The translations under genes and the position numbers were made by a program. From the IMG/VR virus record IMGVR_UViG_2634166512_000003: 47,118 nt of DNA, one strand, 5' to 3'. The notes beneath the pieces are model-generated. The model was not told the DNA's origin. It made no database searches and saw only the letters and a program-made list of their open reading frames with translations. The DNA comes from a virus. Lineage: Duplodnaviria; Heunggongvirae; Uroviricota; Caudoviricetes. This document shows, one piece after another, positions 7,639 to 23,087 of this stretch (the first letter of the stretch is position 1; the number at the start of each line of letters is the position of its first letter).

Positions 7639-8115
7639 ATGGAAAACCAAGAGGAATTACAAAAAGAGATTTTGACCTGGGCGGCAAGGGCAGGGCAGGA
7701 ACTCGTCACGATTGAAATCTGCCGGGCCTGGTTCAGTCAGGGACGCAATGATGAGTTGAGACTACATGAATTTGAGGACGCGGACGGCAATGTGGACTGG
7801 AGAGCCATCAACAACAATCGGCAGAAAATCTTTCGCTGGTTACGTGGCGAGACAACGGCGGCGCGCCGAAAAACTCAGGTGCTGGCCAGTGTGATGAAAG
7901 CCGTGCTACCCGCAGAACGGCGGGCACGTCTGGAGTCGCTGGGCGATCCCGTTTTGCTGGCAACGCTGGCGGCAAAAGAAGGGGTGGAAGCGATTAACGC
8001 TGTACATCTCCACTTCGCGCCAGAGTTAACTATCCAGGAAATTGACGAAGCAATAGCGGCGCTGGTAGCGACGCGAGGAGCAGTGATACGCACTGCGCAA
8101 GACCACCATGCATGA
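7639..8115 (+). CDS. YdaT-like early regulatory protein (CII-position gene)
   Basis: 158-aa ORF immediately after cro-like gene, as in ydaS-ydaT pairs of Rac-type prophages; assignment by synteny and recalled similarity. Confidence 0.45.
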   Translation: MENQEELQKEILTWAARAGQELVTIEICRAWFSQGRNDELRLHEFEDADGNVDWRAINNNRQKIFRWLRGETTAARRKTQVLASVMKAVLPAERRARLESLGDPVLLATLAAKEGVEAINAVHLHFAPELTIQEIDEAIAALVATRGAVIRTAQDHHA

Positions 8116-8381: not shown

Positions 8382-9446
8382 ATGAGTCGTTTGCTGATTA
8401 ACGAAAACCCCCTTCAGGTCCTGCCCACGTTGGCATGCACTATAGGGTTGAATGAAGCCATCGTTCTACAGCAAATCCACTACTGGCTGAATTCATCTCA
8501 AAATTTCTTCGAAAATCGCCACTGGGTGTACAACAGTGTGACCGATTGGCAAGAACAATTCCCGTTCTGGAGCGAGTCGACAATAAAACGCGTGCTGGCC
8601 AATCTGGAAAAATTGAATGTGGTATTTACTGGGAACTTTAACAGTGATGCCTGGGATAAAACCAAGTGGTATTCAATCAATTATGCCCAGTTATGTAAGA
8701 TTGAAGAGACAACATTCCCTGTGGCCAATCGATTAGGTCAAGTTGACCCAATCGAAGAGGTCAATGTGACCCAAGCATCAGGTCAAGTTGACCCATGCGC
8801 TAAGGTCAAAATGACCCAATCTCTTACAGAGAATACAACAGAGAGTACTACAGAGATAAAAGATCCCCCTTACCCCCAAAAGGGGGAGGGCGAGGAAATC
8901 ATTCTCGCTGACGCTCAAAAAGCTCTGAACTACTACAACGAGAAAGTCGGTACACGCTGCCGCGATGTTAAACCGTTTGTCATGCTGCTGACTGCCACCA
9001 CCACCCGCGCTGGTTACAGCGTGGCTGAGATTCAGTTAGTAATTCGTTGGGTTATTGCGACATGGCGCCGTCGTAGCGGAAGCGTGCCGAAACCTGCGAA
9101 CATTTGCCGCGTAAACCGGTTTGACGGATATCTGGCTGACGCTGAGGCGTGGGCCACTGCTGAGGCTGCCGTTGACCCTGCTGAAGTTGTGAAGAGCTAC
9201 AACGAGATTCTGGGCGACCTGCTACCTATAGCTGAAATTGATACTGACCGCCGTCGGGCAATCCTGCGCCTGCTGGCACATATGCGCACGCAAACTCTTG
9301 GCGCATTTATCGGCTACTTCGAAAAATTCCGCGATAACGCCCCAGACTTCTATTTCGGCGGCGAATATCGCACCGGCTGGCGGGCAGGGTTTGATTACCT
9401 GATGAAGCCAGAAACACTGCGTAAAACCAGGGAAGGGGCATTATGA
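8382..9446 (+). CDS. phage replication initiation protein (O-like / replisome organiser)
   Basis: ATG at 8382 with GGAG RBS (ORF-track start 8346 is TTG); position between early regulators and helicase; acidic linker and conserved C-terminal region typical of phage replication initiators. Confidence 0.6.
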   Translation: MSRLLINENPLQVLPTLACTIGLNEAIVLQQIHYWLNSSQNFFENRHWVYNSVTDWQEQFPFWSESTIKRVLANLEKLNVVFTGNFNSDAWDKTKWYSINYAQLCKIEETTFPVANRLGQVDPIEEVNVTQASGQVDPCAKVKMTQSLTENTTESTTEIKDPPYPQKGEGEEIILADAQKALNYYNEKVGTRCRDVKPFVMLLTATTTRAGYSVAEIQLVIRWVIATWRRRSGSVPKPANICRVNRFDGYLADAEAWATAEAAVDPAEVVKSYNEILGDLLPIAEIDTDRRRAILRLLAHMRTQTLGAFIGYFEKFRDNAPDFYFGGEYRTGWRAGFDYLMKPETLRKTREGAL

Positions 9447-9645
9447 ATCCAGAAGAACTGGAAGCGATCGTTCTCGCTGGTCTGATTAACGGTGGCGCGA
9501 CGCCTGACGCGTTTGATGTGATTGCCACTACTCCGGAGGAAGCCTTCAGCATCGTGTTTCGTAAGCGTAAACTGACCGCCGTATGTAGCCATCAGACGAG
9601 AATTGGTAACTTAGACGCCCATCTGATATAGACGGACATCTAAGT

Positions 9646-10071
9646 ATGGAATTACAGGACTGGCGAAAAGAACCTCGTAAAAACTATTCGAATGAATTCA
9701 AACTTCGTATGGTGGAACTGGCATCACAACCTGGAGCTTGTGTTGCACAGATTGCACGTGAAAATGGCGTCAATGATAATGTTATTTTCAAATGGCTCAG
9801 GCTCTGGCAGAACGAAGGGCGTGTTTCGCGGCGTCTTCCGGTAACGACCTCTTCTGACACTGGCGTTGAATTATTACCTGTAGAAATAACGCCGGATGAG
9901 CAGAAAGAACCTGTGGCGGCCATTGCGCCGTCTTTATCCACTTCCACTCAGACCAGAGTCAGTGCCAGTTCCTGCAAGGTGGAATTCCGTCACGGTAACA
10001 TGACGCTGGAAAATCCATCGCCAGAGCTGCTCACAGTGTTGATCCGTGAACTGACCGGGAGGGGAAGATGA
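9646..10071 (+). CDS. IS66 family accessory protein Orf1 (TnpA-like)
   Basis: 141-aa HTH-containing protein, first of the IS66 three-gene set. Confidence 0.8.
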   Translation: MELQDWRKEPRKNYSNEFKLRMVELASQPGACVAQIARENGVNDNVIFKWLRLWQNEGRVSRRLPVTTSSDTGVELLPVEITPDEQKEPVAAIAPSLSTSTQTRVSASSCKVEFRHGNMTLENPSPELLTVLIRELTGRGR

Positions 10072-10418
10072 TCTCACTCCCATCAGGTACCCGTATCTGG
10101 CTCGTTGCCGGCGTTACCGATATGCGTAAATCCTTCAACGGACTGGGAGAACAGGTACAACATGTGCTGAATGATAATCCCTTCTCCGGTCACCTGTTTA
10201 TCTTCCGTGGCCGACGGGGTGACACCGTCAAAATTCTTTGGGCTGATGCTGATGGTCTGTGCCTGTTCACCAAACGCCTGGAGGAAGGCCAGTTTATCTG
10301 GCCTGCGGTACGTGACGGCAAGGTATCCATTACCCGCTCGCAACTGGCAATGCTCCTCGATAAGCTGGACTGGCGTCAGCCAAAAACATCCAGCCGTAAC
10401 TCACTGACAATGTTGTAA
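10068..10418 (+). CDS. IS66 family accessory protein Orf2 (TnpB-like)
   Basis: 116-aa protein overlapping Orf1 stop (ATGA), characteristic IS66 arrangement. Confidence 0.8.
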   Translation: MISLPSGTRIWLVAGVTDMRKSFNGLGEQVQHVLNDNPFSGHLFIFRGRRGDTVKILWADADGLCLFTKRLEEGQFIWPAVRDGKVSITRSQLAMLLDKLDWRQPKTSSRNSLTML

Positions 10419-10448: not shown

Positions 10449-12062
10449 ATGAGTCAGAAATACCTCATTCGCATCGCAGAGCTGGAAAGGTTGCTCTCTG
10501 AGCAGGCTGAAGCCCTCCGTCAGAAAGACCAGCAACTGAGTCTGGTTGAAGAGACGGAAGCCTTCCTGCGCTCTGCACTGACACGTGCCGAAGAAAAGAT
10601 CGAAGAAGATGAACGGGAAATAGAACATCTGCGGGCTCAGATAGAAAAACTGCGCCGGATGCTGTTCGGTACCCGTTCTGAAAAACTGCGTCGTGAAGTT
10701 GAACTGGCTGAGGCTCTGCTGAAACAACGTGAACAGGACAGCGATCGTTACAGTGGGCGGGAAGACGATCCTCAGGTTCCCCGCCAGTTGCGACAGTCGC
10801 GCCATCGTCGTCCGTTACCGGCACACCTTCCCCGTGAAATACACCGCCTGGAGCCAGAAGAAAGCTGTTGCCCGGAGTGTGGCGGTGAGCTGGATTATCT
10901 GGGGGAAGTCAGCGCTGAACAGCTGGAACTGGTGAGCAGTGCCCTGAAAGTGATCCGCACAGAACGGGTAAAAAAAGCCTGTACAAAATGTGACTGTATT
11001 GTTGAAGCACCGGCGCCGTCCCGCCCGATAGAGCGTGGTATCGCGGGCCCCGGATTACTTGCCCGCGTGTTAACGGGAAAATACTGCGAACATCTGCCAC
11101 TGTATCGTCAGAGTGAAATCTTTGCCCGCCAGGGTGTCGAACTGACCTGGGCCTTACTCTCCAACTGGGTTGACGCGTGCTGCCAGTTAATGACACCGGT
11201 GAATGATGCCCTGTACCGTTATGTAATGAACACCCGCAAGGTTCACACTGATGACACACCGGTAAAGGTACTGGCACCGGGTCAGAAAAAGGCGAAAACA
11301 GGGCGTATCTGGACGTATGTCCGGGATGATCGCAATGTGGGTTCGTCATCTCCTCCAGCGGTCTGGTTCGCGTACTCGCCGAACCGGCAGGGGAAACACC
11401 CGGAGCAACACCTCCGCCCCTTCCGGGGTATCCTGCAGGCGGATGCGTTCACAGGTTACGACAGGTTGTTCAGTGCAGAACGTGAAGGTGGTACACTGAC
11501 AGAAGTTGCGTGCTGGGCCCATGCCCGGCGAAAAATCCACGATGTATACATCAGCAGCAAAAGTGCGACGGCAGAAGAAGCCCTGAAGCGAATCAGTGAA
11601 CTGTACGCCATCGAGGATGAAATACGGGGATTACCGGAGTCAGAGCGTCTTGCCGTCAGGCAGCAGCGAAGCAAAGTGTTACTGACGTCGCTGCATGAAT
11701 GGATGGTGGAGAAGAATGGTACGCTGTCGAAAAAATCCAGACTGGGCGAAGCGTTCAGCTATGTACTGAATCAGTGGGATGCCCTCTGTTATTACAGTGA
11801 TGACGGTCTGGCGGAGGCGGATAATAATGCTGCGGAAAGAGCGCTTCGTGCAGTCTGTCTCGGAAAGAAAAACTTTATGTTCTTTGGCAGCGATCACGGC
11901 GGCGAGCGTGGAGCACTGTTGTACGGGCTGATCGGCACCTGCCGTCTGAACGGTATCGATCCGGAAGCGTATCTGCGCCATATCCTGAGCGTACTGCCGG
12001 AATGGCCTTCCAACCGAGTTGACGAACTCCTGCCATGGAACGTAGTACTCACCAATAAATAA
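10449..12062 (+). CDS. IS66 family transposase
   Basis: 537-aa protein with N-terminal coiled-coil/leucine zipper, CxxC zinc motif and DDE-type core as recalled for IS66 transposases. Confidence 0.85.
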   Translation: MSQKYLIRIAELERLLSEQAEALRQKDQQLSLVEETEAFLRSALTRAEEKIEEDEREIEHLRAQIEKLRRMLFGTRSEKLRREVELAEALLKQREQDSDRYSGREDDPQVPRQLRQSRHRRPLPAHLPREIHRLEPEESCCPECGGELDYLGEVSAEQLELVSSALKVIRTERVKKACTKCDCIVEAPAPSRPIERGIAGPGLLARVLTGKYCEHLPLYRQSEIFARQGVELTWALLSNWVDACCQLMTPVNDALYRYVMNTRKVHTDDTPVKVLAPGQKKAKTGRIWTYVRDDRNVGSSSPPAVWFAYSPNRQGKHPEQHLRPFRGILQADAFTGYDRLFSAEREGGTLTEVACWAHARRKIHDVYISSKSATAEEALKRISELYAIEDEIRGLPESERLAVRQQRSKVLLTSLHEWMVEKNGTLSKKSRLGEAFSYVLNQWDALCYYSDDGLAEADNNAAERALRAVCLGKKNFMFFGSDHGGERGALLYGLIGTCRLNGIDPEAYLRHILSVLPEWPSNRVDELLPWNVVLTNK

Positions 12063-13412
12063 GCGTCAATACGGTGCTCCGTTGACGCTTACCGTGTTTC
12101 ACCGTCGCGCTTTCAGCGAAATCAAAAAGCAGGCACTGGCGAACGGCATGATCGACATGTTGTTTATCAGCGAAGCGCTGGGCGGTTCCAGCCTTGCGGA
12201 TCTGTCTCAAATATCCCGGATCCCGGCAACGGCACCGAATCTGAAAGGCTATGCCGGGAAAATGGTGCGGGCATGGCGGAGCCGCAAAATGGCGGCATTG
12301 TTGCAATCTGGCGCGGATGGTATCCGTAACGCTGTAAACCAGAGTCAGCGTGATGAGGTTATTGAATCTCATGTTGCTCAGGTGCTGGATATGAGCGCCG
12401 CTACCGGCACAGTCCAGCCGGTACACATCAAAGAGCTGTTACCGCTCTACATTGACACCGTTGATAAACGGATGTCTGGTGACGCGCAGGAAATGATGCT
12501 GAAAACCGGAGTCGAGGATCTGGATGTCGCCCTGGGCGGTATCAACATGACCGATCTTGTTGTGGTTGCCGGTCGTCCAGGCATGGGGAAAACGGAATTT
12601 ACCCTGAAGATTATCGATGGCGTTACCGCAGATGGCGGCGGCGCACTGTTTTTCAGCATGGAAATGGGCGCTCAGCAGATTGTTGAACGTACCGTTGCCG
12701 GGGCTGGGAATATGTCAACGTCGCGTCTGCGTAATCCAAAAGAAATGGACGATGAGGATTTGACCAGATTAACCGCCGCGCTTGCAATCATGCAGGATCG
12801 CGATATCTGGATTGTTGATGCCACTGATTTGACGATTGAGCAGATCCGCGCCATTGCAGAGACTCATAAACGCCGTTATCCGCACCTGAAGTTGATTGGT
12901 GTTGATTACATGGGCCTGATCAAAAAACCGAAGGCCGAGCGCCACGATCTCGCTGTCGGGCATATCTCCCGCAACATGAAGACTATGGCCATGCGTCTGC
13001 ATACCCCTGTTTTTGCTCTTAGCCAGCTTTCCCGCCAGGTGGATTCTCGACCTGCTGGCCAGCGTCGCCCGGTGATGTCGGACCTGCGCGATTCCGGCAG
13101 TGTTGAGCAGGACGCTGACAGCATTTTGTTTTTGTACCGCGATGAAGTTTACACACCTGATTCACCTGCAAAGGGTATCGCCGAGGTGATTATCGGTAAA
13201 AACCGTTCTGGCGGGGCAGGTGAAATTATTTATCAGGAATTCCGGAATGGGCATTTCCTGCCAATTGATCAACACGTAGCACGCGAAAAAATACGCATCC
13301 AGAAGGAGGCAGAGCAACCGAGAAAACGTGAAAAACGGTATTCAAACAAAAACTTTAATACGGACCCATTTTAACCACGCATGACCAGCGTGAAATAACC
13401 GAGGAAAGACCA

Positions 13413-13814
13413 ATGACCCAATTAATTAACCACACGAGTGCACACTATAGTGACGACGGTAAAAACTACCTGGATTCAATTCTGTGGCACATGAACGCAG
13501 CCGCGCGAGCACGTACCCGCTCGACATATTGCCCGCCACCTAAAAACACTGACGTTGTGGTAATTGCAAAACCTGAGCACGTAGCAGTTATTCGCCCGGC
13601 AGAAATAACCTCAGGGACCGCCAAAACACATACCGGCGTTGTTATTAAAAATACTGGCGAGCGCACAGTAAAACTCCGCGAAACAGCGACTGCGTGGTCT
13701 GCGGGTGTAAGGGAGAACTACGATAAAAAAACAGGTTACCGCTTAGGCGCATCAGGCAGCACCCGGTTGTTACTCGACACCGTGAAGCCCATCAGGAAGA
13801 AGGGCAAAAAATAA
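13413..13814 (+). CDS. hypothetical phage protein (nin-like region)
   Basis: ATG preceded by GAGGAAAGACC motif. Confidence 0.45.
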   Translation: MTQLINHTSAHYSDDGKNYLDSILWHMNAAARARTRSTYCPPPKNTDVVVIAKPEHVAVIRPAEITSGTAKTHTGVVIKNTGERTVKLRETATAWSAGVRENYDKKTGYRLGASGSTRLLLDTVKPIRKKGKK

Positions 13815-14047
13815 TGACTGGCGCAGATTATCTCCCGGCTGGGTTGCCACACAACAGGGCAGCATGGCCGCAGGAGTATCAAATACTGGAACATTACGAT
13901 TTGCGCGCCGCCGGGCTGATTCGCCAGTTATACGAAAAACGAATACCACGCGGCACGGTTACAGAGGCGTTGAAAAATACTCCTGATAATTACCGGGAGT
14001 TTTTCAGGGACCGACTGAATTACTGGAGAGGGGAACGAGAAAAATGA
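13814..14047 (+). CDS. hypothetical phage protein
   Basis: Overlapping start/stop with neighbours, consistent with an operon. Confidence 0.4.
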   Translation: MTGADYLPAGLPHNRAAWPQEYQILEHYDLRAAGLIRQLYEKRIPRGTVTEALKNTPDNYREFFRDRLNYWRGEREK

Positions 14048-14268
14048 ACGAAATTTTACTCGCATTTATTCCACGATTTATTAACGACAAAGTGGCGTTG
14101 AGTGCCGTTAATGATCAATACGAAATTGTATGCAGCATGATCGACATTATCCCCGGTGAGCAGTATGACGCGATGTGTGACCTGAAAATATTCACGTGGT
14201 TGGGGTGGGCCATTCCGTGTGGAGAGCCAACAAATATTCGCCCGTTTGAGGGCAGGGAGGCTGTATGA
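14044..14268 (+). CDS. hypothetical phage protein
   Basis: Overlapping start/stop with neighbours. Confidence 0.4.
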   Translation: MNEILLAFIPRFINDKVALSAVNDQYEIVCSMIDIIPGEQYDAMCDLKIFTWLGWAIPCGEPTNIRPFEGREAV

Positions 14269-14455
14269 GTGAGTTGAAAATACGTCGCAAGACAATAGCA
14301 CGCGTTAAAAATCCATTACCGGCCCCCGCCGAATGCCATTTTTGTGGTGGGAATGTACGGATTGGTACGTATGTATGGTGATTGCGAAGTGACGTAAAAC
14401 AAATCGTTGTGGGTGTAATATCGTCAATATCATTGGTTTCCTGGAGGGAAAGGAT

Positions 14456-14677
14456 ATGTTTGGCGATAACCTGGAGTTACCACGGAACGGGCGGATAGTG
14501 CTCTATATTTCAGATTACAAAGTAACCCGGGCTGAGGTGTTGGAACCGGAAAAACATTTGGTCACGTTACCGGACATTATTGAGTTGTATAAGCGGGTCG
14601 GATATGTGGACTTGCATCGCGATGATGTTCCCGTTGAGTGTATGGAATGTGAACACCGGAGGTTTGAAGTTGATTGA
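14456..14677 (+). CDS. hypothetical phage protein
   Basis: ORF with GGAGGG RBS. Confidence 0.4.
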   Translation: MFGDNLELPRNGRIVLYISDYKVTRAEVLEPEKHLVTLPDIIELYKRVGYVDLHRDDVPVECMECEHRRFEVD

Positions 14678-14769
14678 ATTGACTTAGAAAAAGCCCGGGG
14701 CTATAGTTTCCGCGCAGCCGCAAAATCGGTTGCCGGGATTTGCACCCCGGATATCTAAAAGGCGACAAC

Positions 14770-14790
14770 GACGCGCCAGCGTCTTTTTTA
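14770..14790 (+). terminator. rho-independent terminator-like hairpin (possibly bidirectional)
   Basis: GACGC-GCCA-GCGTC stem-loop followed by TTTTTT; A-rich tract upstream; embedded in longer inverted repeat CGACAA...TTGTCG. Confidence 0.5.
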
Positions 14791-14949
14791 TTGTCGTGCG
14801 CACAGCCACATCCGCGATTTATGGTGGGGCGTGTAGGGGAGTCGAAAGGCTCGCCGGGTCCTTTTAGCCGGTAGTGCAAACCCTGCATGTCTCACCACCC
14901 AAAGATTTGCACCTGAGGGGGGTGATTATCCGACTAAAAGGAAATCGCT

Positions 14950-15744
14950 ATGACAACTCAAGTATCCGCAGCAGCCATCTCCCCGATTATCCACAACCAA
15001 CTTCCCGTCCTCACCACCGAATTACTCGCGAATCTCTATGGCACAGAGCCGGATTACATTCGTAAAAACCATAACCGGAACTCAGAGCGATTCGTGGTCG
15101 GGAAGCATTACTTTTTGCTCGAAGGTGAGGAGTTGCGCGAATTTAAGCACAGCATGTCTTTAAGACCTCCTGTGAAAATCGCCAGAAATGTCCGCTCTCT
15201 CATCCTCTGGACAGAACGCGGCGCAGCTCGCCATGCCAAAATGCTGGAAACAGAACAGGCCTGGGAAGTTTTCGAAAAGCTGGAAGATTGTTATTTTAGC
15301 CAGCGTCCAGAGAGGCGGAGTACAACCACCGATGACCGCACTCCCTTACGTGATGCCGTTAATATGCTGGTCGGTAAGAAAGGCATGATGTATCCCGATG
15401 CCTACACCATGATTCACCAACGTTTCGCCGTCTCTCACATAGAACAACTGTCACAGACGCAAATGTTAGAGGCGATTGAATACATCCACTGCCTGCTACT
15501 CGATGAAAATCAGCCAACCATTCCAGATTTTTCTTTTATCACCACTATCAAAAATGGAAAAGTGACCAGGATGCGCCATGTTGCCAAAGGCGAACATCTG
15601 ATGACGTTTGACGCTTTCAAAGAGATCGCTGAGCGGGCAGGGTATCTGGTGATCCACAGCGACAACCTGCGAAGTATGACGCTGGATAAATTGATGGTAA
15701 TGGGGAAAAAGTCGGTTGTATCCGTTGCTGATTCAGCATTTTGA
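14950..15744 (+). CDS. antirepressor / Roi-like protein with N-terminal KilA-N/ORF6N-type domain
   Basis: N-terminal region (LPVLTTELLANLYGTEPDYIRKNHNRNSERFVVGKHYFL) resembles ORF6N/KilA-N antirepressor domains as recalled. Confidence 0.55.
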   Translation: MTTQVSAAAISPIIHNQLPVLTTELLANLYGTEPDYIRKNHNRNSERFVVGKHYFLLEGEELREFKHSMSLRPPVKIARNVRSLILWTERGAARHAKMLETEQAWEVFEKLEDCYFSQRPERRSTTTDDRTPLRDAVNMLVGKKGMMYPDAYTMIHQRFAVSHIEQLSQTQMLEAIEYIHCLLLDENQPTIPDFSFITTIKNGKVTRMRHVAKGEHLMTFDAFKEIAERAGYLVIHSDNLRSMTLDKLMVMGKKSVVSVADSAF

Positions 15745-15782
15745 CAGGTTGAATGTTTGGCGCGGTTATACTCTATTTGCGC

Positions 15783-15852
15783 TTAAAAAGGTATTTAGTC
15801 ACAACCAGCACGAGGCCGAATACTCTGTCAAAGTACCGCCCATGTAAAACTG
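15783..15852. repeat. copy A of about 70-bp imperfect direct repeat (non-coding relic of a gene 3' end)
   Basis: Near-identical to 19384..19454 with a few mismatches and one indel. Confidence 0.8.
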
Positions 15853-15921
15853 TTACGTATGTACTTGATGACTAAGCTGGCACCAGGTTAACACCAGGCG
15901 CCAGCTTGAAGGAAACTTCAG

Positions 15922-16845
15922 TTATTGGTTTCTGAGGAAAGCGATTCTTGAAAGGGTCATTTGCGTCTGGCAGTCGACCATTTTCTTGACTTCAGCATCT
16001 GTTCCCTGCATTGAAACTTTACCGCACATAGCATCCTTAGTTTTGATCCACTGACGCTGAGAAGGCAGCAACTCTTTTTTCTTCGCCGGCGTTAACCTGC
16101 CCCAGACTGTATTCAAATCAGAGTCAGCATTCGCAAATGCCATTCGGGACTGATCAAGGCTTTCAGCTTTTTGCGGCTGAAGTTGTGCCTGCCTCTCTAT
16201 TTGCTTCTCCGCCTCATACCTGGCCTGTTCCTGTGCCCTGAGTTGCACCTGTTGTTCCGCTTCAATTTGACTCTGTTGGGCATCCTTAGCCTGCTGGATT
16301 TTCTGCTGCTCAACGATCGGGTTGATAATGGAAAGCGATGTCAGTAAAGCGGCGCCCACTGATATCGGATTATCAGAAGAGGTTTTTACAAAAACGTTTT
16401 TCTGATCGTCGGTCGCCTGCACGGTGTAGGTGATACGTTTTGAAAAGGCGTTTGCGTTGTTCTCCAAAAACAGATTTTCCATTTGCTTATCGAGATTACG
16501 ATTAAAATTCTTTCGGTAAGCATCAGAAAGCTGGATGTACTCGTTCGCAGGTAGAGTCATCGTCACGGTCCCTTCACAAGTTTTCATTGTGCTGCCCGTG
16601 TCACTTGATGTTGTGGAGATTTCAGAGACGGCTAGTTTGATCTTGTCCAGTGTGCTTCGTTTGGTCTGATTAGTGACATCAGGGTATTTATCGACCTGTT
16701 CAGAGAGTCCTTCATAAGCAGATTTTTTTAATAAATCCATGAGAGCTGATTGGGTCATTTCCGAAGAACAACCGATCTCATCTTTTTTGTTATCACAGCC
16801 TGTAAGGGCAATGGCGAGTAAGAGTACTGAGTATTTTAATCTCAT
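15922..16845 (-). CDS. lipoprotein with Gln-rich coiled-coil region and C-terminal DUF1311/LprI-like domain
   Basis: Signal peptide with lipobox LTGC; C-terminal QRQWIKTKDAMC...CQTQM motif resembling DUF1311 as recalled; minus-strand orientation opposite to flanking phage genes. Confidence 0.55.
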   Translation of the reverse strand: MRLKYSVLLLAIALTGCDNKKDEIGCSSEMTQSALMDLLKKSAYEGLSEQVDKYPDVTNQTKRSTLDKIKLAVSEISTTSSDTGSTMKTCEGTVTMTLPANEYIQLSDAYRKNFNRNLDKQMENLFLENNANAFSKRITYTVQATDDQKNVFVKTSSDNPISVGAALLTSLSIINPIVEQQKIQQAKDAQQSQIEAEQQVQLRAQEQARYEAEKQIERQAQLQPQKAESLDQSRMAFANADSDLNTVWGRLTPAKKKELLPSQRQWIKTKDAMCGKVSMQGTDAEVKKMVDCQTQMTLSRIAFLRNQ

Positions 16846-17471
16846 GAATTCCCTTTAGAGTAAGGATTGGTTTTTAAGACGCGGTCTGTAATCAGTTCCG
16901 AGAGCTACAGTAAACAACGCTGAGCACTGAACGCATCACAGGCAAGGTAAAAGGTGATATCGGCAAAGGCTGTGAAACCTTTAATTCAACAGATGGGAAC
17001 GGTATGCACAGGATCCTGTAACGACGCTCCCAAAACCGGAAACCTGTAAGGCATGTTTTCGCTGCTGAACTTAATATACGAACCTGCACTATCATGAACA
17101 TATTTTATATCGTTATACCCCGAGTGATTGTGCCCGGCAATGGATAGTGTCCTGGAGGAACTATTTCTACTGTAAAAGGTAGACATTTAATTTCAGTGTG
17201 GAATTATTCCCTGCTGTTAATAACCATGGCTCTATATGGCACCGAGCGGACTAGTTAACTTGCCTGAAAGCCGCTATGAGTGAGGAGCGAATATTGGCAC
17301 GATAGGATACCTGAACCATTTTTTGGACATGCGCTAAAAGCGAATGATTAGTTTTATCGGAATATTTACAGTATACTTACAAGGCAAGCTTGGCGTACCG
17401 TCTTGGGCGAGATTGCTTAAATTATTTTGTGGATATATCATTCAAACAAAAGATAATAAAATGAGGTTGTT

Positions 17472-17669
17472 ATGTCATATATTCGCGTAGAGAAAGATGG
17501 CCTTCAGTATGAAGCAGAATACTTCCGTGAAGAGGATATGGTCACAGTCTTTGGGGTTAGAGGAGGGCATTCCAGCGTGGTTCTAAATGGAATGACAGAA
17601 GTCGCGGCTGCTCGTACTGCGTTACGAAATCTTATTAGAGAAAATCAGGTTGATCCTCTAACTGATTAA
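17472..17669 (+). CDS. hypothetical small protein (65 aa)
   Basis: ORF in AT-rich island upstream of the T5orf172-like gene. Confidence 0.35.
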   Translation: MSYIRVEKDGLQYEAEYFREEDMVTVFGVRGGHSSVVLNGMTEVAAARTALRNLIRENQVDPLTD

Positions 17670-17873
17670 AAATAAGCCATCTTAACTGAGAGCATATTTT
17701 GATATAATTTAGATTAAATCTATTTTGAAGGTTAGTTTGGGATGAGAAGATTACATCAAAACCGTTATTACTAGCAATAAGTTGTGTAAATCAAATAATA
17801 CATAATCAGGTGGTAATATATACTAAGCGTAGTAAAGTTTTTATATATTCCTGTAACTTTGTGAGAAACTTCC

Positions 17874-18539
17874 ATGAAAGCCGACAACTTAAGAATTATA
17901 GAGAATGGCAAATATGTTTTCGATATGTTCTTGGATACTGGTGAATTTTACTATACAAGTCATGCCTTTGACACGAGAGAAGATGCAAAAAGCTGGATGG
18001 AAGAATGGCAGATTTGGGCAAATAATGTATCGAGTGGGAAAGTAAGTAGTATTTATTATATTTTACAAGTGCCTGATACTTGGGCCGGTTCTTCAGATAA
18101 AAATAACCCTTACTCGGGACTTTATGTGAAAATAGGGCGTTCCAATAATGTGCTAAAAAGGTTGTCTAACCTGCAGACAGGTGCATTTGGTCAATTAATA
18201 TTACACGCTTTGGAACCAGGTGGTTCAGAAAAAGAAAACTATCTTCATGAAAAATTTAGCAACGAAAGACGTCAAGGTGAATGGTTTGTTTGTACTAAGG
18301 AACTTACCAAGCATATATTTACAACATGGTTTAAAAACAAAATGCTCCCACCAGAACATCAAATAAAAATAATGCAGCTCGCAGAAAGAACAGGTATTTA
18401 TTCGCATGTTCATACACTAATGGGGGGGAAGCCAGACTTAGTAAACCCATCTATTAGTGAACCTTGGGAATGCGAAAAATATGTTTTGGTTGATATGATT
18501 TATAGCTCTTTAGCAAAGCAAGTTAATCATAAAAAATAA
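17874..18539 (+). CDS. T5orf172/MUG113-type (GIY-YIG superfamily) domain protein with uncharacterised N-terminal domain
   Basis: Motif GLYVKIGRSNNVLKRLSNLQTG...LHEKFSNERRQGEWF matches the recalled T5orf172 consensus (YVKIG...R...L..TG...LH..F...R..GEWF); AT-rich codon usage. Confidence 0.7.
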   Translation: MKADNLRIIENGKYVFDMFLDTGEFYYTSHAFDTREDAKSWMEEWQIWANNVSSGKVSSIYYILQVPDTWAGSSDKNNPYSGLYVKIGRSNNVLKRLSNLQTGAFGQLILHALEPGGSEKENYLHEKFSNERRQGEWFVCTKELTKHIFTTWFKNKMLPPEHQIKIMQLAERTGIYSHVHTLMGGKPDLVNPSISEPWECEKYVLVDMIYSSLAKQVNHKK

Positions 18540-18664
18540 AGTGTTACATTTTAACTATACAATTATTGATTCACTAATGAAGAGGTGATTTAGACGTATG
18601 AAGTTTTAATAAGCTCCAAGAATATTTTGTCATACATGGGTTAAAGAGTTATATAATAATATCT

Positions 18665-18722
18665 GCTTCTGGAACACAGCAGACAAGCACCTGCAGATAA
18701 AGGTCTGCTGAGAGCGAGAAGC
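18665..18722 (+). other. nested inverted-repeat element (possible structured RNA) in intergenic gap
   Basis: GCTTCT...AGAAGC outer stem enclosing CAGCAGAC...GTCTGCTG inner 8-bp stem with 18-nt loop. Confidence 0.3.
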
Positions 18723-18859
18723 GGATCATACGTTGGAAGTTGTTTAGGCAAATACGTTATAAACGTATTTGATTAAATTTACTTGGATCATAGTCTTCAA
18801 TAACGCTTTATTATATTGTTTTTCATGCAGCAAACAGGTTCACAGGTAGGTAATAAGCT

Positions 18860-19264
18860 ATGAGTGGATGGAAAGAGCCTTTTACATTAGCAGAACAGAT
18901 ACAATTAGCATTAAATTTAGGTTATGAGGCTGTACCAGATGAAGAGGCATATACTGGGGCATACTTCATTAAAGGTGGTAAGAAGTGGATCTTTAACATC
19001 ATCGGTCTCAAAAAGACATTGAATATATCTTCAGATGATGAACTAAGAGGGCAGGATTATGATGTTGATATGTATTTCGAAATTCGCCAAAATTGGGCAC
19101 AATACCAAGATATGATCTTTGGAAGCGAAGATATCACTCCTTCACCTAAAAATGAACTTACTTCAATTTACCATGACCTGCAGGTAACGGATGAACCCAG
19201 GGAAATGGTGTATCTTTCTGATGGGATGTGGCTGGCTCCCAACGGACGAATTGTACAACGATAG
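18860..19264 (+). CDS. hypothetical protein (134 aa), possible partner of T5orf172-like protein
   Basis: Co-oriented ORF downstream in the same AT-rich island. Confidence 0.45.
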   Translation: MSGWKEPFTLAEQIQLALNLGYEAVPDEEAYTGAYFIKGGKKWIFNIIGLKKTLNISSDDELRGQDYDVDMYFEIRQNWAQYQDMIFGSEDITPSPKNELTSIYHDLQVTDEPREMVYLSDGMWLAPNGRIVQR

Positions 19265-19373
19265 CACTCGAACACACTCAGTAATCGTCTATAAGGCCAG
19301 CACTTGTTACTTGGTCATTTGGGGTTGCTGGTCTTCTCCATTAAATCGACTAAAGTCTGTTCCATAGAGAGAG

Positions 19374-19979
19374 TTACTTGCGTTTAAAAAGGTATTTTGT
19401 CACGACCAGCACGAGGCCGAATACCTCTGTCAAAGTACCGCCCATGTACAACTGTAGTGTTAAATCCTCAAATTCCAGCTTACCTGCGCCGTCGGCAATA
19501 AATACACCATTCATTATCAGAAGTTGGCAAGCAAGGATAATCAGGAACCATTTCCCGTATCGTTTTTTTAGAGCGATTTCTGCTTCAAAATCTTTGTTGT
19601 TGAGTTGTTTGCGCTCATGCTCGGTATCAAGTGAATTCACCTGTTTCACAGATGTGAACTCGGTCAAGATTTTACTCTCAGTACGGGTGACTTGTTGAGA
19701 GGGTGTAACAGTTGGAATTCTTTTGCTAGACGCAGCTACAGCCATTTTGCGAGCTTCGGCAGCTCTTTTTCTGGCTATTCCGCGAATACGGACAGCCGTT
19801 TTTTTGGGGGCGTGCGAAACCTTTGGCTGAGGTGAAGTTTCGTCAGGAGACTGAACCGGGGTTTCATCGTCCCCCGGCTCAACCTCTTCTGCTAACTGAC
19901 GGTGTAGGTTGAGGGAATCCTTCAGTCGGCGTGCAACTTCCTGTTTGAAACGGCTGTTAAAATCGTCATCCGATGGCAT
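19374..19979 (-). CDS. Lys/Arg-rich protein with two C-terminal transmembrane helices
   Basis: Hydrophobic segments WFLIILACQLLIMNGVFIA and LTEVFGLVLVVTKYLF near the C-terminus; start 10 nt after ImmA-like stop; 3' end coincides with repeat copy B. Confidence 0.55.
   Translation of the reverse strand: MPSDDDFNSRFKQEVARRLKDSLNLHRQLAEEVEPGDDETPVQSPDETSPQPKVSHAPKKTAVRIRGIARKRAAEARKMAVAASSKRIPTVTPSQQVTRTESKILTEFTSVKQVNSLDTEHERKQLNNKDFEAEIALKKRYGKWFLIILACQLLIMNGVFIADGAGKLEFEDLTLQLYMGGTLTEVFGLVLVVTKYLFKRK
19384..19454. repeat. copy B of about 70-bp direct repeat (coding 3' end of the 19374..19979 gene)
   Basis: Near-identical to 15783..15852. Confidence 0.8.
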
Positions 19980-19988
19980 TCTAAAGCG

Positions 19989-20477
19989 TTACCCCAACCT
20001 CAAGTTCTTTAAACGATAAGTCATCGCATCGTCAGATACGCCAAAATAATGCGCCATTATATAACTTGGTTGGCCGTCAGCGTGCAGTTTTCTGACCTCA
20101 TCAACCGGCATCAGAAGTTCTGCTGCGAACTTGTTCGCAAAAATTTCATCAGGATGCGTTCCGGCGCTTGCGGTTTCGCCACGTAAATCAACGTACTCAT
20201 ATTCATCACTATGCGATGCTTGCCGGGCGATGTAATGCCCCAACTCATGCCCACATGAAAAACGTTGACGAACTTTGTTGTCATCACTGTTTAGAAAGAT
20301 CGCTGGATCTTGATCTTTTTGTTTAATCAGTGCGCCAGAAACTTTCCCAGGAAGATCGGTAATAAAAACATCTAATCCCATGTCGTGAGCAATTTTCGCT
20401 GGATCAACAGGGAAACCACGCCCGCACCAGAACGTGTCCAGCACTCGCCGGGCGTGCTCTCTTGGGTTGGTAGCCAT
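19989..20477 (-). CDS. ImmA/IrrE-family metallopeptidase
   Basis: HELGHY zinc-binding HEXXH motif in a 162-aa protein; GGAG RBS upstream. Confidence 0.7.
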   Translation of the reverse strand: MATNPREHARRVLDTFWCGRGFPVDPAKIAHDMGLDVFITDLPGKVSGALIKQKDQDPAIFLNSDDNKVRQRFSCGHELGHYIARQASHSDEYEYVDLRGETASAGTHPDEIFANKFAAELLMPVDEVRKLHADGQPSYIMAHYFGVSDDAMTYRLKNLRLG

Positions 20478-21044
20478 AGCTCCTCCAGTTACTGCATTAC
20501 GATTGTTGGTCGAAATATAGACAACATGTTCCGTACCACTTTCCTGTGAAAGTGCAAATTCTGCACTTCTGGTACGATATTAACTGTTAGTAGTAAAGTC
20601 TTCCAGATAAATCACTTTAAAATCTTGTGAATTGCTTGCTTTTTACGCTGCATTGTGGATGGCTCAATGTTTCCAGTAAAAACATACATGATAATCATGA
20701 CATTAGTGGTTTTTTAAGCGTCCATATGTTTCTTAAAAAAATGGATGCCACAAGAGGCCAGATGAGAACGGAAAGGGAAGGCTATTACATGTGTGATTTA
20801 TTACATCTGTAAAAAAATACAGATCTAACTTGATCTTTTCATTGAAGTTTTTCTTGGTCCTGGATAGGATCTGGAGGTTGCGAAGTTTTTAGAGTCGCAT
20901 CAAAGGGAAAGCCCTGACAGCGCCAACTGTCAGGGCCATACAAAAACATCGGTTAATGCTTTCGTTGAGATCTCGGTTTGGGAGATTACCTCAACCGGGA
21001 TCCCGTGTAAAGCATTCATTACCGAAAATGATATAGGTCAATGA

Positions 21045-21323
21045 ATGAAACACATCTGTAAAAAGTCACATCGTCACGACAGTATGTTTGATGTTCTTTC
21101 TGCAAATCAGGGTAACGTTGGGCGGCACAAGTGTTGTGGATGTGCCTATGATAAAGGTATGTGGCATGCATTAATCGGCGTTCCGCGTGCGGTTGATGAC
21201 TCTGTTTTAGGTGATTTACCCGAAAGCCAGGCTGGGCATGTCCGTCATAAAGATGCTTTTGAAGCATATAATATGGGCTATGACCATGGGATGCATAAAA
21301 AAGCCTACGGTATGGCCTCATAA
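21045..21323 (+). CDS. hypothetical Cys/His-rich small protein
   Basis: ORF followed by a strong intrinsic terminator; true start may be internal. Confidence 0.35.
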   Translation: MKHICKKSHRHDSMFDVLSANQGNVGRHKCCGCAYDKGMWHALIGVPRAVDDSVLGDLPESQAGHVRHKDAFEAYNMGYDHGMHKKAYGMAS

Positions 21324-21345
21324 TCTGGTGCAAATGAATAACTAA

Positions 21346-21370
21346 CCCGCTTCGGCGGGTTTTCTTTTTT
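21346..21370 (+). terminator. rho-independent terminator
   Basis: CCCGC-TTCG-GCGGG hairpin followed by TTTTCTTTTTT. Confidence 0.6.
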
Positions 21371-21441
21371 ATAGAACCCTGCGATGTGAAAACGAATAAT
21401 AAATTTTGCAAATAATGCAGTTTTTATTATTCGAGGTAATT

Positions 21442-22083
21442 ATGAAAACCTTCTATGAGGACTGGCCTGAAACTTTCGTTAGCCGATTAGATATGTTACG
21501 AGCTCTGGATGATCGCGGCTCGACCCGGAGGCTCTATCTTGAGCGGACCGGGGCAATATTTGACGCTCTGGCAGAAGAGATACGTACAGCCGTTGCCGGG
21601 CATCCTGAAATCGACGTGAGTGAACTTGATATCGGGCCGCTGTATCGCTATTACAAACGTGGAGAAAAGGGGAATCCGCTGGCTGACTTACTTATTGAGT
21701 TGGCTCCACCAACTTGTGAACGGGTTCGTATATCTCCTGAAGTGTACACAATCCCGTATCTGTTTTTTGCACTGTTGATAGCGCAAGGCGCTGACAACGA
21801 TGCCCGCGATTTTTTCAATATGATGATGCGACCGTTGATCATCGCCTACCGTTTCAAACAACTGGCGCGCTACCTTGGCACGAAGGGCGGAGGACGACCA
21901 CAGCACAGATTAAAAAGCGAAGCCATTGAACTGGCTGATCGTTTTTTTACTGAAAACCCGACAGCGCCATTATCGCGTGGTGTGCAATACATATCCGGTA
22001 TTTTTGTGGCGAAATACTCTGACCCACCTGCAGCGTCGACGATTAGAAAATGGTTAATTTCAATTTACAGGAGTGATAAATAA
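21442..22083 (+). CDS. hypothetical phage protein
   Basis: ATG at 21442 with GAGG RBS preferred over ORF-track start at 21406, which lies inside an upstream inverted repeat. Confidence 0.45.
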   Translation: MKTFYEDWPETFVSRLDMLRALDDRGSTRRLYLERTGAIFDALAEEIRTAVAGHPEIDVSELDIGPLYRYYKRGEKGNPLADLLIELAPPTCERVRISPEVYTIPYLFFALLIAQGADNDARDFFNMMMRPLIIAYRFKQLARYLGTKGGGRPQHRLKSEAIELADRFFTENPTAPLSRGVQYISGIFVAKYSDPPAASTIRKWLISIYRSDK

Positions 22084-22196
22084 TGACCATAAACGGTTTA
22101 ATCCCCTATAAAACCGTTTAATAAAATTCACGACGTGAATATAATTGTTCATTATTCCCTCATTGTATTTGGCGTTATGACAAATGCCATAAAATA

Positions 22197-22212
22197 CTGT
22201 ATAAATGTACAG
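22197..22212. promoter_or_regulatory. LexA box (SOS operator) overlapping a promoter -10 element
   Basis: CTGTATAAATGTACAG fits CTGT-N8-ACAG with AT-rich centre; TATAAA inside the box and ATGACA 17 bp upstream resemble -10/-35. Confidence 0.6.
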
Positions 22213-22234
22213 GTAATGGCGTTAGGGGGAAGAC

Positions 22235-22414
22235 ATGAATATTCAAGAATCTATAGGCGAACTACCGGAAACATGCCGGGCTGTTATCAAGCGTAAGGAC
22301 GGACACATCGTTGGTGTGCGTGTTCTGACCGATGATGAACGGATTGCCAGCCTGATGGCGTTTCTCGAGTTGGCAGAAATAGCTGGATATACTATTACAC
22401 CCCCTGATGCGTAA
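22235..22414 (+). CDS. small SOS-regulated protein (59 aa), candidate antirepressor
   Basis: ATG 22 nt downstream of the LexA box with AGGGGGA RBS; below the 60-aa ORF-track threshold; function inferred from context only. Confidence 0.45.
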   Translation: MNIQESIGELPETCRAVIKRKDGHIVGVRVLTDDERIASLMAFLELAEIAGYTITPPDA

Positions 22415-22490
22415 AACACGGTATAATGTCGGTGCTGGATTGAACACCCAGCACCACTTCTGAACACTGCCGCGCCACCTGGAGTTAACC

Positions 22491-23087
22491 ATGGCGCAGC
22501 ATTCATTTATCAGGGTATCCGGCGGTTCGCTAATACCCGCGACACCAGACACGCAACGCTGGTTGACTGAACGAGTCAAACCAGGTGCTGTTGTGTATGC
22601 AGATTTCAAACAGGCGCGTAATCCCGCGTTTCATCGTAAATTTTTCTCACTTCTCAACCTGGGCTTTGATTACTGGCATCCCTCCGGAGGGGCTATTTCT
22701 CCTGCGGAGCGCGAACTGGTTCACGGATACGTTAAGTTACTGGCGTATTACGGTGGGCATGGTGATGTCATGGCTGAGCTGGCTGATCAGTATCTTCTCG
22801 ATGAGTCGGAAAAGCGCGCGGGGAATATCAGTGCGGTGAAGTCGTTCGAGGCGTTTCGCGCCTGGGCGACTATGGAATCTGGATTTTATGACGTTCATCA
22901 GATGCCAGATGGTAGTTTGATGCGTGTACCTCGTTCAATCTCGTTTGCTGCGATGGACGATCTTGAGTTCGGTCAACTGTATTCAGCCGTTTTAGATGTG
23001 CTGTGGAATTATATTTTGTTCCGCACGTTTGCCTCTCAGGAGGCCGCTGAAAATGCTGCCGCGCAGCTGTTGGATTACACATCATGA
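22491..23087 (+). CDS. nin-region phage protein (DUF1367-like)
   Basis: 198-aa ORF directly upstream of YbcO-like gene with ATGA overlap; family assignment tentative. Confidence 0.45.
   Translation: MAQHSFIRVSGGSLIPATPDTQRWLTERVKPGAVVYADFKQARNPAFHRKFFSLLNLGFDYWHPSGGAISPAERELVHGYVKLLAYYGGHGDVMAELADQYLLDESEKRAGNISAVKSFEAFRAWATMESGFYDVHQMPDGSLMRVPRSISFAAMDDLEFGQLYSAVLDVLWNYILFRTFASQEAAENAAAQLLDYTS

What the first reader, a model, noticed from the sequence alone, without database searches (positions are those of the whole stretch)
15783..19454. Accessory island bracketed by about 70-bp imperfect direct repeats, one coding and one a relic
The sequence at 15783..15852 is a near copy of 19384..19454. 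The second copy is the in-frame 3' end of the membrane-protein gene 19374..19979, while the first is out of frame and non-coding. This is the footprint of a roughly 3.5-kb segment (lipoprotein, small ORF, T5orf172-like gene, 134-aa ORF) inserted or exchanged by recombination at the end of that gene.
Basis: seen in the sequence. Interest (0 to 1): 0.7.

Follow-up and report, generated by a model that had tools for sequence, protein, structure and literature searches.

The report
Gene-end relic flanking prophage cargo hotspot
An 80-base leftover of a membrane-protein gene's end sits 3.6 kb from the intact gene in an E. coli lambda-like prophage; the two copies bracket a stack of swappable accessory (probably anti-phage) genes and have served as recombination handles for losing or adding cargo, which is an ordinary kind of phage mosaicism, unusually well documented here.

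Summary
Window 15774-15853 (R1) and 19375-19455 (R2) are direct repeats of 80 and 81 nt, with 5 mismatches and 1 indel. R2 is the last 26 codons plus the stop of the 201-aa membrane-protein gene X (19374-19979, minus strand), which lies downstream of an ImmA/IrrE peptidase gene. R1 is a frameshifted relic next to the convergent ORF6N anti-repressor gene.

The window is an E. coli lambdoid prophage integrated at tRNA-Ser (serU). The 3.5 kb between the repeats is not one insert. It is a stack of separately mobile cassettes: an LprI lipoprotein, a 65-aa ORF plus T5orf172 GIY-YIG protein, and a 134-aa ORF.

Sister prophages carry other cargo at the same place, including the known defence system PD-T4-3 and the candidate PDC-M25. 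The R1-LprI junction is present in 439 of 5,426 complete E. coli genomes.

One genome (GPEC172) has the predicted empty site. Its single repeat is an R1/R2 chimera and its flanks are at least 99.85% identical to an occupied prophage, so it is a secondary deletion. An E. whittamii prophage shows the reverse: a second cargo stacked through a crossover inside the repeat.

Verdict: a mosaic junction with a gene remnant, in a prophage accessory-gene hotspot, shuffled by homologous recombination. This is a known kind of feature. Interest is modest.

The parts
15774..15853 (-). R1: non-coding relic of the last 26 codons plus stop of an X-family gene. It is frameshifted by a 1-nt deletion in this window and is in frame in the ST131-type prophage.
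   Evidence: The junction with the LprI cassette is intact in 439 of 5,426 E. coli genomes.
19375..19455 (-). R2: the functional copy, forming the 3' end of gene X. It encodes the second hydrophobic helix and is the most conserved block of the protein family.
   Evidence: R2 is identical in all eight intact X copies tabulated (the window and seven related loci).
19374..19979 (-). Gene X: a 201-aa protein with two C-terminal hydrophobic segments. It matches phrog_5346 and has no Pfam or PADLOC match.
19989..20477 (-). ImmA/IrrE (Peptidase_M78) gene immediately upstream of X on the same strand. Its best PADLOC hit is CapP. It forms the conserved right anchor of the hotspot.
   Evidence: The M78+X pair is conserved in Klebsiella, Salmonella and other E. 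coli prophages.
14950..15744 (+). ORF6N-domain anti-repressor-type gene, convergent with X. It forms the conserved left anchor of the hotspot.
   Evidence: It is preceded by isrK and C4 antisense RNA matches.
15873..17074 (-). LprI-lipoprotein cassette. The CDS is 15922-16845 and starts MRLKYSVLLLAIALTGC (lipobox). A strong hairpin lies at about 15876-15908.
   Evidence: The same 1.2-kb cassette, at 82-86% nt identity, occurs in other viral contigs with no ORF6N, X or M78 within 6 kb.
17247..19351 (+). Low-GC (33-36%) variable segment that differs between this window and the ST131-type prophage. It is present in only 18 of 5,426 E. coli genomes.
17376..18725 (+). Cassette of a 65-aa ORF (17472-17669) plus a T5orf172/MUG113 GIY-YIG protein (17874-18539).
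   Evidence: It is 84% identical in nucleotides to a Morganella morganii locus lying between icd and an integrase/excisionase pair, which I read as the end of a prophage.
18860..19264 (+). 134-aa ORF with no family match, forming the last cargo gene before X.
   Evidence: It is absent from the Morganella copy of the neighbouring cassette.

Best explanation
The interval between the convergent ORF6N anti-repressor gene and the ImmA/IrrE-X operon is an accessory-gene hotspot, largely for anti-phage defence, in a family of serU-integrated lambdoid prophages of Escherichia.

R1 is the stranded 3' end of an earlier X allele. It was left behind when DNA carrying cargo plus its own X gene was joined in. 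That event used one illegitimate joint about 80 nt from the end of the resident X and one homologous crossover further right.

Since then, the two 80-nt copies have served as substrates for ordinary homologous recombination. The segment encodes the most conserved part of X, so it stays similar between otherwise diverged phages. Recombination between R1 and R2 of one prophage deletes the cargo. Recombination between the X end of one phage and R1 of another stacks cargo in tandem.

The cargo itself is a stack of independently mobile cassettes: LprI lipoprotein; 65-aa ORF plus T5orf172 GIY-YIG; and a 134-aa ORF.

Shown: the repeat, the relic status, the alternative cargos, and the two chimeric recombinants. 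Inferred: the order of events that created R1, and the defence role of this window's own cargo.
For: Repeat and coding status.

The window is 100% identical to an E. coli RM9387 prophage. It lies between the replicative helicase and antiterminator Q and is integrated at tRNA-Ser(cga) next to mtfA.

Alternative cargo between the same flanks:
- ST131-type, a 232-aa protein.
- L006, PD-T4-3 at E = 1.7e-137, plus a leftover LprI 3' fragment.
- L010, SMEK-domain and methyltransferase proteins.
- GF131 and E. whittamii, PDC-M25A/B.
- L023, a different cargo, a 204-aa and a 352-aa protein I did not scan against any family library.

Deletion recombinant: the single repeat of GPEC172 equals the left part of S-type R1 plus the right part of R2. 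Its flanks differ from SK1144 by 2 of 3656 nt and 6 of 4126 nt.

Accretion recombinant: E. whittamii L004 joins [PDC-M25 | common right end | X end] to [R1 | LprI...]. Its repeat is R2-like for the first ~20 nt and then W-type R1-like, including the 1-nt deletion.

The crossovers lie in different intervals of the repeat, as expected for homologous recombination and not for site-specific recombination.

R1 differs from R2 mainly at synonymous positions. The C-terminal 27 residues are the most conserved block of the X family across Enterobacteriaceae.

R1 diverges faster than its flanks: 90.1% identity between the two R1 forms, against 96.6-98% for flanking sequence. This fits a relic under no selection.
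Against: No ancestral empty site was found, so the direction and mechanism of the founding event are inferred. A Campbell-type single crossover of a circular intermediate would give the same chimera pattern as a deletion.

The two R1 forms (W and S) differ from each other mostly at synonymous sites although they share one junction. That requires either later gene conversion from functional X alleles or chance, because the counts are small.

The second relic in L023 ends at the same position in X as R1. This is either inheritance of R1 by recombination or a hint of a preferred breakpoint.

The window's own cargo has no significant PADLOC hit, so its defence role is argued only from context.
Confidence: 0.8

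Rival explanations
1. Campbell-type insertion. A circular DNA carrying the cargo and an 80-nt piece of an X gene integrated by a single homologous crossover into the 3' end of the resident X, creating both repeats at once.
For: Direct repeats bracket the cargo. The GPEC172 chimera (left part of R1 plus right part of R2) is equally what an unoccupied target would look like. R1 and R2 differ as two alleles would.
Against: The only empty site is nested in the ST131-type backbone at 99.85-99.95% identity, while the occupied state spans backbones that differ by 3-14%. So the empty site looks derived. No circular donor or donor-type repeat was found. The other left junctions at the same hotspot are plain truncations of different genes: an LprI 3' fragment in L006 and a zinc-ribbon pseudogene in GF131. 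That pattern favours illegitimate joints.
Confidence: 0.1
2. Site-specific integration. The 3' end of X is an attachment site, and the island is an integrase-less element (CIME-like) flanked by attL and attR, analogous to e14 or phage 21 in icd.
For: The pattern of one repeat completing the gene and the other being a stranded copy is the classic look of integration into a gene's 3' end. In other prophages X ends 24-40 nt from an integrase gene.
Against: There is no recombinase in the island. In those other prophages a tRNA-Ser gene, the usual attachment site of such integrases, lies 200-460 nt upstream of the M78 gene. M78-X therefore appears to be cargo inside the prophage, not its target. 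The two observed recombinants cross over in different parts of the repeat. Left junctions differ between variants (15685, 15785, 15853).
Confidence: 0.04
3. Local tandem duplication of X, or of M78-X, followed by decay of one copy down to its last 80 nt and later insertion of cargo between the copies.
For: It would give direct repeats in the same orientation.
Against: The differences between R1 and R2 are mostly synonymous, including a different stop codon. That points to two alleles that diverged while functional, not to decay after duplication. The sharp end of homology at 15853/15854 is followed within 20 nt by a cassette found elsewhere.
Confidence: 0.04
4. R1 is retained for a function. 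Because it lies in the 3' untranslated part of the ORF6N transcript, it could act as a trans-antisense RNA against the 3' end of X mRNA. Alternatively it could encode a 23-aa mini-protein (MGGTLTEVFGLVLVVVKYLFKRK in the ST131 type).
For: R1 is kept in 439 genomes. Its plus-strand transcript would be complementary to X mRNA. It is in frame in the ST131 type.
Against: R1 evolves faster than its flanks, at 90% versus 97-98% identity. It is frameshifted in this window. It is lost or cut to 12 nt in L010 and GF131 without loss of X.
Confidence: 0.03

Closest known systems
Mosaic module junctions with gene remnants in lambdoid phages (illegitimate recombination plus homologous exchange at conserved sequences; the Hendrix / Juhala / Clark model, cited from my own knowledge)
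   Same: A truncated gene fragment sits at a module boundary. Alternative modules occupy the same position in related phages. Exchange occurs through flanking conserved sequence.
   Different: Here the remnant duplicates part of a gene that is still present 3.6 kb away. It therefore acts as an internal direct repeat, and both a deletion product and a stacking product are observed directly.
Prophage-encoded hotspots of anti-phage systems (P2/P4 hotspots, PMC9122126; E. coli pangenome selection, PMC9519451)
   Same: Conserved flanking phage genes surround highly variable, low-GC cargo. Sister loci carry a validated system (PD-T4-3) and a candidate system (PDC-M25).
   Different: This is a lambdoid, not a P2/P4, backbone. 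The site lies between an ORF6N anti-repressor gene and an ImmA/IrrE-membrane protein operon in the region between the replication genes and Q. Two full-text literature searches and one paper read in part gave no description of this particular site. The window's own cargo is uncharacterised.
Integration into the 3' end of a gene with a substitute gene end (e14 or phage 21 in icd; from my own knowledge)
   Same: There are direct repeats of a gene's 3' end, one functional and one stranded.
   Different: The element has no integrase and the crossover point is not fixed. In the other prophages that carry it, M78-X lies between a tRNA-Ser gene and the integrase, i.e. inside the prophage.

Membership tests
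Lambdoid mosaic junction with gene remnant | Truncated fragment of a phage gene at the boundary between two modules | tested here: met
   R1 matches only the last 80 nt of X. Homology stops sharply at 15853/15854.
Lambdoid mosaic junction with gene remnant | Related phages carry alternative, unrelated sequence at the same position between conserved flanks | tested here: met
   At least six arrangements were found between ORF6N and X.
Prophage defence hotspot | Variable cargo between conserved anchor genes, including known defence systems | tested here: met
   PD-T4-3 at E = 1.7e-137 in L006 and PDC-M25A/B at E = 8.5e-157 and 4e-96 in L004 and GF131.
Prophage defence hotspot | The cargo of this particular window is a defence system | tested here: inconclusive
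   There is no significant PADLOC hit for LprI, the 65-aa ORF, the T5orf172 protein or the 134-aa ORF. Homologues of the T5orf172 protein lie next to a DUF4435 + AAA_15/21 gene pair (PARIS-like, from my own knowledge of that system) and next to an icd-integrase junction in Morganella. Anti-phage activity cannot be tested here.
Site-specific integrative element (att repeats) | Recombinase encoded in or next to the element | tested here: not met
   No integrase or recombinase domain was found between 15854 and 19374.
Site-specific integrative element (att repeats) | Crossover at a fixed core sequence | tested here: not met
   GPEC172 crosses over between repeat positions ~42 and ~72. E. whittamii L004 crosses over within the first ~24 nt.
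Transposon with target-site duplication | Short identical duplication, terminal inverted repeats, and a transposase | tested here: not met
   The repeats are 80 nt long and 7% diverged. No inverted repeats lie at the island ends. No transposase lies within the island.
Free-standing GIY-YIG homing-endonuclease cassette | Presence of the insertion tracks presence of the endonuclease gene | tested here: not met
   R1 and the LprI junction occur in 439 genomes, but the T5orf172 gene occurs in only 18.

The most novel reading that the evidence does not exclude
The conserved 81-nt end of X, together with portable relic copies of it, may be more than a passive homology patch. It could be a preferred docking sequence with a recurrent breakpoint: R1 and the second relic in L023 end at the same X position. 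Such a sequence would let lambdoid prophages gain, lose and stack defence cassettes in an integron-like manner without an integrase. It might work together with the GTCCGCT-N10-AGCGGAC double-hairpin elements that separate cassettes in sister cargos.
Probability: 0.12. Interest if true: 0.6.

Novelty: new member of a known kind. Interest (0 to 1): 0.3.

Why it matters
This locus is a clean, sequence-level example of how temperate-phage accessory loci turn over. A short gene remnant, kept similar by the protein constraint on its functional twin, mediates both cargo loss and cargo stacking, and both products are captured in natural genomes.

In practical terms, it defines a lambdoid-prophage hotspot anchored by the ORF6N gene and the ImmA/IrrE-X operon. 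The hotspot is present in about 8% of complete E. coli genomes, including ST131 (JJ1886, SK1144). It already holds PD-T4-3 and PDC-M25 in some strains. Its other occupants are therefore reasonable candidates for untested anti-phage functions. These are the 65-aa ORF plus T5orf172 protein, the 134-aa ORF, the LprI lipoprotein and the ST131 232-aa protein.

It does not reveal a new mechanism.

Tried and rejected
1. Attachment-site hypothesis. In Klebsiella, Salmonella and other E. coli prophages, X ends next to an integrase gene. However, a tRNA-Ser gene lies upstream of the M78 gene in every case. M78-X therefore looks like cargo between attL and int, not a target.

2. Ancestral empty site. The composite empty-site query found only GPEC172 among 448 genomes. 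A degenerate empty-junction pattern found nothing in IMG/VR or JGI metagenome contigs. The pattern was validated on L003.

3. Phage database. The island has no match in the 50,697 phage records apart from the ImmA gene and the ORF6N N-terminus.

4. Species-representative genomes gave only one locus, in E. whittamii.

5. The GTCCGC...GCGGAC hairpin element seen at cassette borders in sister cargos is absent from the window and has no Rfam match.

6. Rfam found no RNA family inside the island. Promoter and terminator scans were no better than shuffled sequence.

7. Homing by the GIY-YIG gene was rejected because the repeat and junction occur without that gene.
Full report
**1. Observation**

Window 15774-15853 (R1) and 19375-19455 (R2) align over 80 and 81 nt with five mismatches and one single-base indel. 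No other direct repeat in 13000-22500 is comparable. blastn E-values for copies of this repeat in roughly 10-kb comparisons are about 1e-27.

R2 is the in-frame end of the ORF 19374-19979 on the minus strand, here called X. It encodes ...YMGGTLTEVFGLVLVVTKYLFKRK*. X has two C-terminal hydrophobic segments, and R2 encodes the second.

R1 has lost one base and has no ORF upstream. It lies 30 nt beyond the stop codon of the convergent ORF6N gene.

**2. Context**

The window is 100% identical to a prophage of E. coli RM9387. The prophage is integrated at tRNA-Ser(cga) next to mtfA.

The region lies between the replicative helicase gene and antiterminator Q. The gene order is:

- isrK and C4-type RNAs.
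- An ORF6N anti-repressor-type gene (plus strand).
- R1.
- A lipoprotein with an LprI domain (minus strand).
- A 65-aa ORF, a T5orf172/MUG113 GIY-YIG protein and a 134-aa ORF (all plus strand).
- X and then an ImmA/IrrE Peptidase_M78 gene (both minus strand).

GC content falls to 33-36% across 17400-19200.

**3. The interval is a cargo hotspot**

Compared with the ST131-type prophage (SK1144, locus L002), the window shares 14044-17246 and 19352 onwards. The segment 17247-19351 is replaced there by unrelated DNA.

Further arrangements between the same anchor genes are:

- L006: R1, a 190-nt leftover of the LprI 3' end, then four other genes including PD-T4-3 (E = 1.7e-137).
- L010: only 12 nt of R1, then SMEK-domain, methyltransferase and other genes.
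- GF131: a slightly different ORF6N end, a zinc-ribbon pseudogene fragment, then PDC-M25A/B and X, with no R1.
- L023: R1, LprI, a different cargo (204-aa and 352-aa proteins not scanned against any family library), then a second decayed relic, with no intact X or M78.

The ORF6N-R1-LprI junction is intact in 439 of 5,426 complete E. coli genomes. This window's variable segment occurs in only 18 of them.

The island is itself composite. The LprI cassette (15873-17074) occurs at 82-86% identity in about 25 viral contigs that have no ORF6N, X or M78 within 6 kb. The cassette holding the 65-aa ORF and T5orf172 (17376-18725) occurs at 84% identity in Morganella morganii, between icd and an integrase/excisionase pair, which I read as the end of a prophage.

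**4. What R1 is**

In the ST131 type, R1 is in frame and reads LFYMGGTLTEVFGLVLVVVKYLFKRK*. Across both R1 forms, I counted by hand about seven synonymous-type codon differences from R2. These are TAC/TAT, GGC/GGT, GTC/GTT, ACA/ACT, AAA/AAG, AAG/AAA and the stop TAA/TAG. There are about three non-synonymous differences.

That bias suggests R1 diverged from R2 while it was still part of a working gene. It would then be a piece of another X allele, not a target duplication and not a decayed local copy. The counts are small, so this is suggestive rather than proven.

The two R1 forms are only 90% identical to each other, whereas the flanking DNA is 96.6-98% identical. R1 therefore shows no sign of selection now.

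The C-terminal 27 residues are the most conserved block of the X family across Klebsiella, Enterobacter, Salmonella, Serratia and other genera. R2 is identical in all eight intact X copies compared. This explains why that stretch remains a usable patch of homology between diverged phages.

**5. The repeats are recombinationally active**

A synthetic empty-site query (ORF6N end + repeat + X) matched as one uninterrupted piece in only one of 448 genomes, GPEC172. The single repeat in GPEC172 carries the diagnostic bases of ST131-type R1 on the left (TTTGACC, GAGACC) and of R2 on the right (CATGTACAACTGTAGTG). Its flanks differ from SK1144 by 2 of 3656 nt and 6 of 4126 nt.

By contrast, occupied prophages differ from one another by 3-14%. 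The empty site is therefore most simply a recent 3,423-nt deletion between R1 and R2. The resulting chimeric X protein is seen on 23 contigs.

The converse product also exists. In Escherichia whittamii (L004), a GF131-like block [PDC-M25A/B | ~250-nt common right end | X end] is fused to [R1 | LprI ... X]. The fusion lies inside the repeat. The first ~20 nt are R2-type (TAA stop, GCGTTT), and the rest is window-type R1, including the 1-nt deletion. The result is two cargos in tandem.

The two crossovers fall in different parts of the repeat. That fits homologous recombination and not site-specific recombination.

**6. Rejected alternatives**

In other prophages the M78-X pair ends 24-40 nt from an integrase gene. 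This raised the idea that the X end is an attachment site. However, a tRNA-Ser gene lies 200-460 nt upstream of M78 in each case, so M78-X appears to be cargo inside those prophages.

There is no recombinase, transposase or terminal inverted repeat in the island. The T5orf172 gene cannot be the mobilising agent, because the repeat occurs in 439 genomes and that gene in 18.

A Campbell-type origin cannot be formally excluded. It predicts the same chimera as a deletion does. It is disfavoured because the one empty site is nested within the ST131-type backbone, and because other left junctions at this hotspot are plain truncations of other genes.

**7. Comparison with what is known, and verdict**

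This is a textbook-type lambdoid mosaic junction lying inside a prophage defence hotspot of the kind described for P2/P4 and the E. coli pangenome (PMC9122126, PMC9519451). The added value is twofold. The gene remnant can be seen directly acting as a recombination handle, and a specific hotspot is delimited whose uncharacterised occupants are candidates for anti-phage function.

Novelty: a new member of a known kind. Interest: 0.3.

Noticed in passing
window 16341-16372 (also ~16228-16260 and ~16810-16853): E. coli type I-E CRISPR arrays carry spacers that match the LprI gene. The spacer of strain 88COLEC is identical to 16341-16372, and the protospacer is preceded by an ATG PAM. One search lists matches of this kind in at least ten genomes and suggests over a hundred.
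   Followed up: partly
L006:6856-6879, 7735-7800, 8634-8701, 9860-9921; L002:6728-6751; L010:~11990-12040: Sister cargos contain a ~66-nt double-hairpin repeat (ATGTCCG..TCGCTCACAGCGGAC...GTCCGCTTTGTGCCAGGAGCGGAC) between every cassette gene and at cargo borders. It has no Rfam match and is absent from this window. It may be a cassette-boundary or recombination element.
   Followed up: partly
L011:5153-7661, L014:5195-7513, L018:4954-7035: The 162-aa Peptidase_M78 plus X-family membrane protein pair is a conserved two-gene module. In other Klebsiella, E. coli and Salmonella prophages it sits between the tRNA-Ser attachment site and the integrase. It may be an uncharacterised protease/membrane-effector system. 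The best PADLOC hit for M78 is CapP, and X has no hit.
   Followed up: partly
window 14714-14789 and 14817-14902: There are Rfam matches above the gathering score to isrK (76 bits) and C4 antisense RNA (74 bits) immediately upstream of the ORF6N gene. This is an anti-repressor operon of the P1/P7 c4-ant or Gifsy isrK type.
   Followed up: no
L023 (reverse-complemented) 9544-9664: One viral contig has a second, decayed relic of the X end, with an in-frame stop. It ends at the same X position as R1. The X body and M78 gene are replaced by unrelated genes, so M78-X is dispensable, and the same breakpoint appears twice.
   Followed up: partly
window 10449-12062 (and upstream ORFs 9646-10418): An IS66-family element (annotated ISEc23 in RM9387) is inserted just upstream of the replicative helicase gene of the prophage. 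This may inactivate the replication module.
   Followed up: no
L058-L061:3228-6923: In Enterobacter, a 76%-identical homologue of the T5orf172 protein lies in a small chromosomal islet next to a DUF4435 + AAA_15/21 pair (PARIS-like). In Vibrio vulnificus a homologue lies among toxin-antitoxin cassettes. Both contexts are typical of defence genes.
   Followed up: partly
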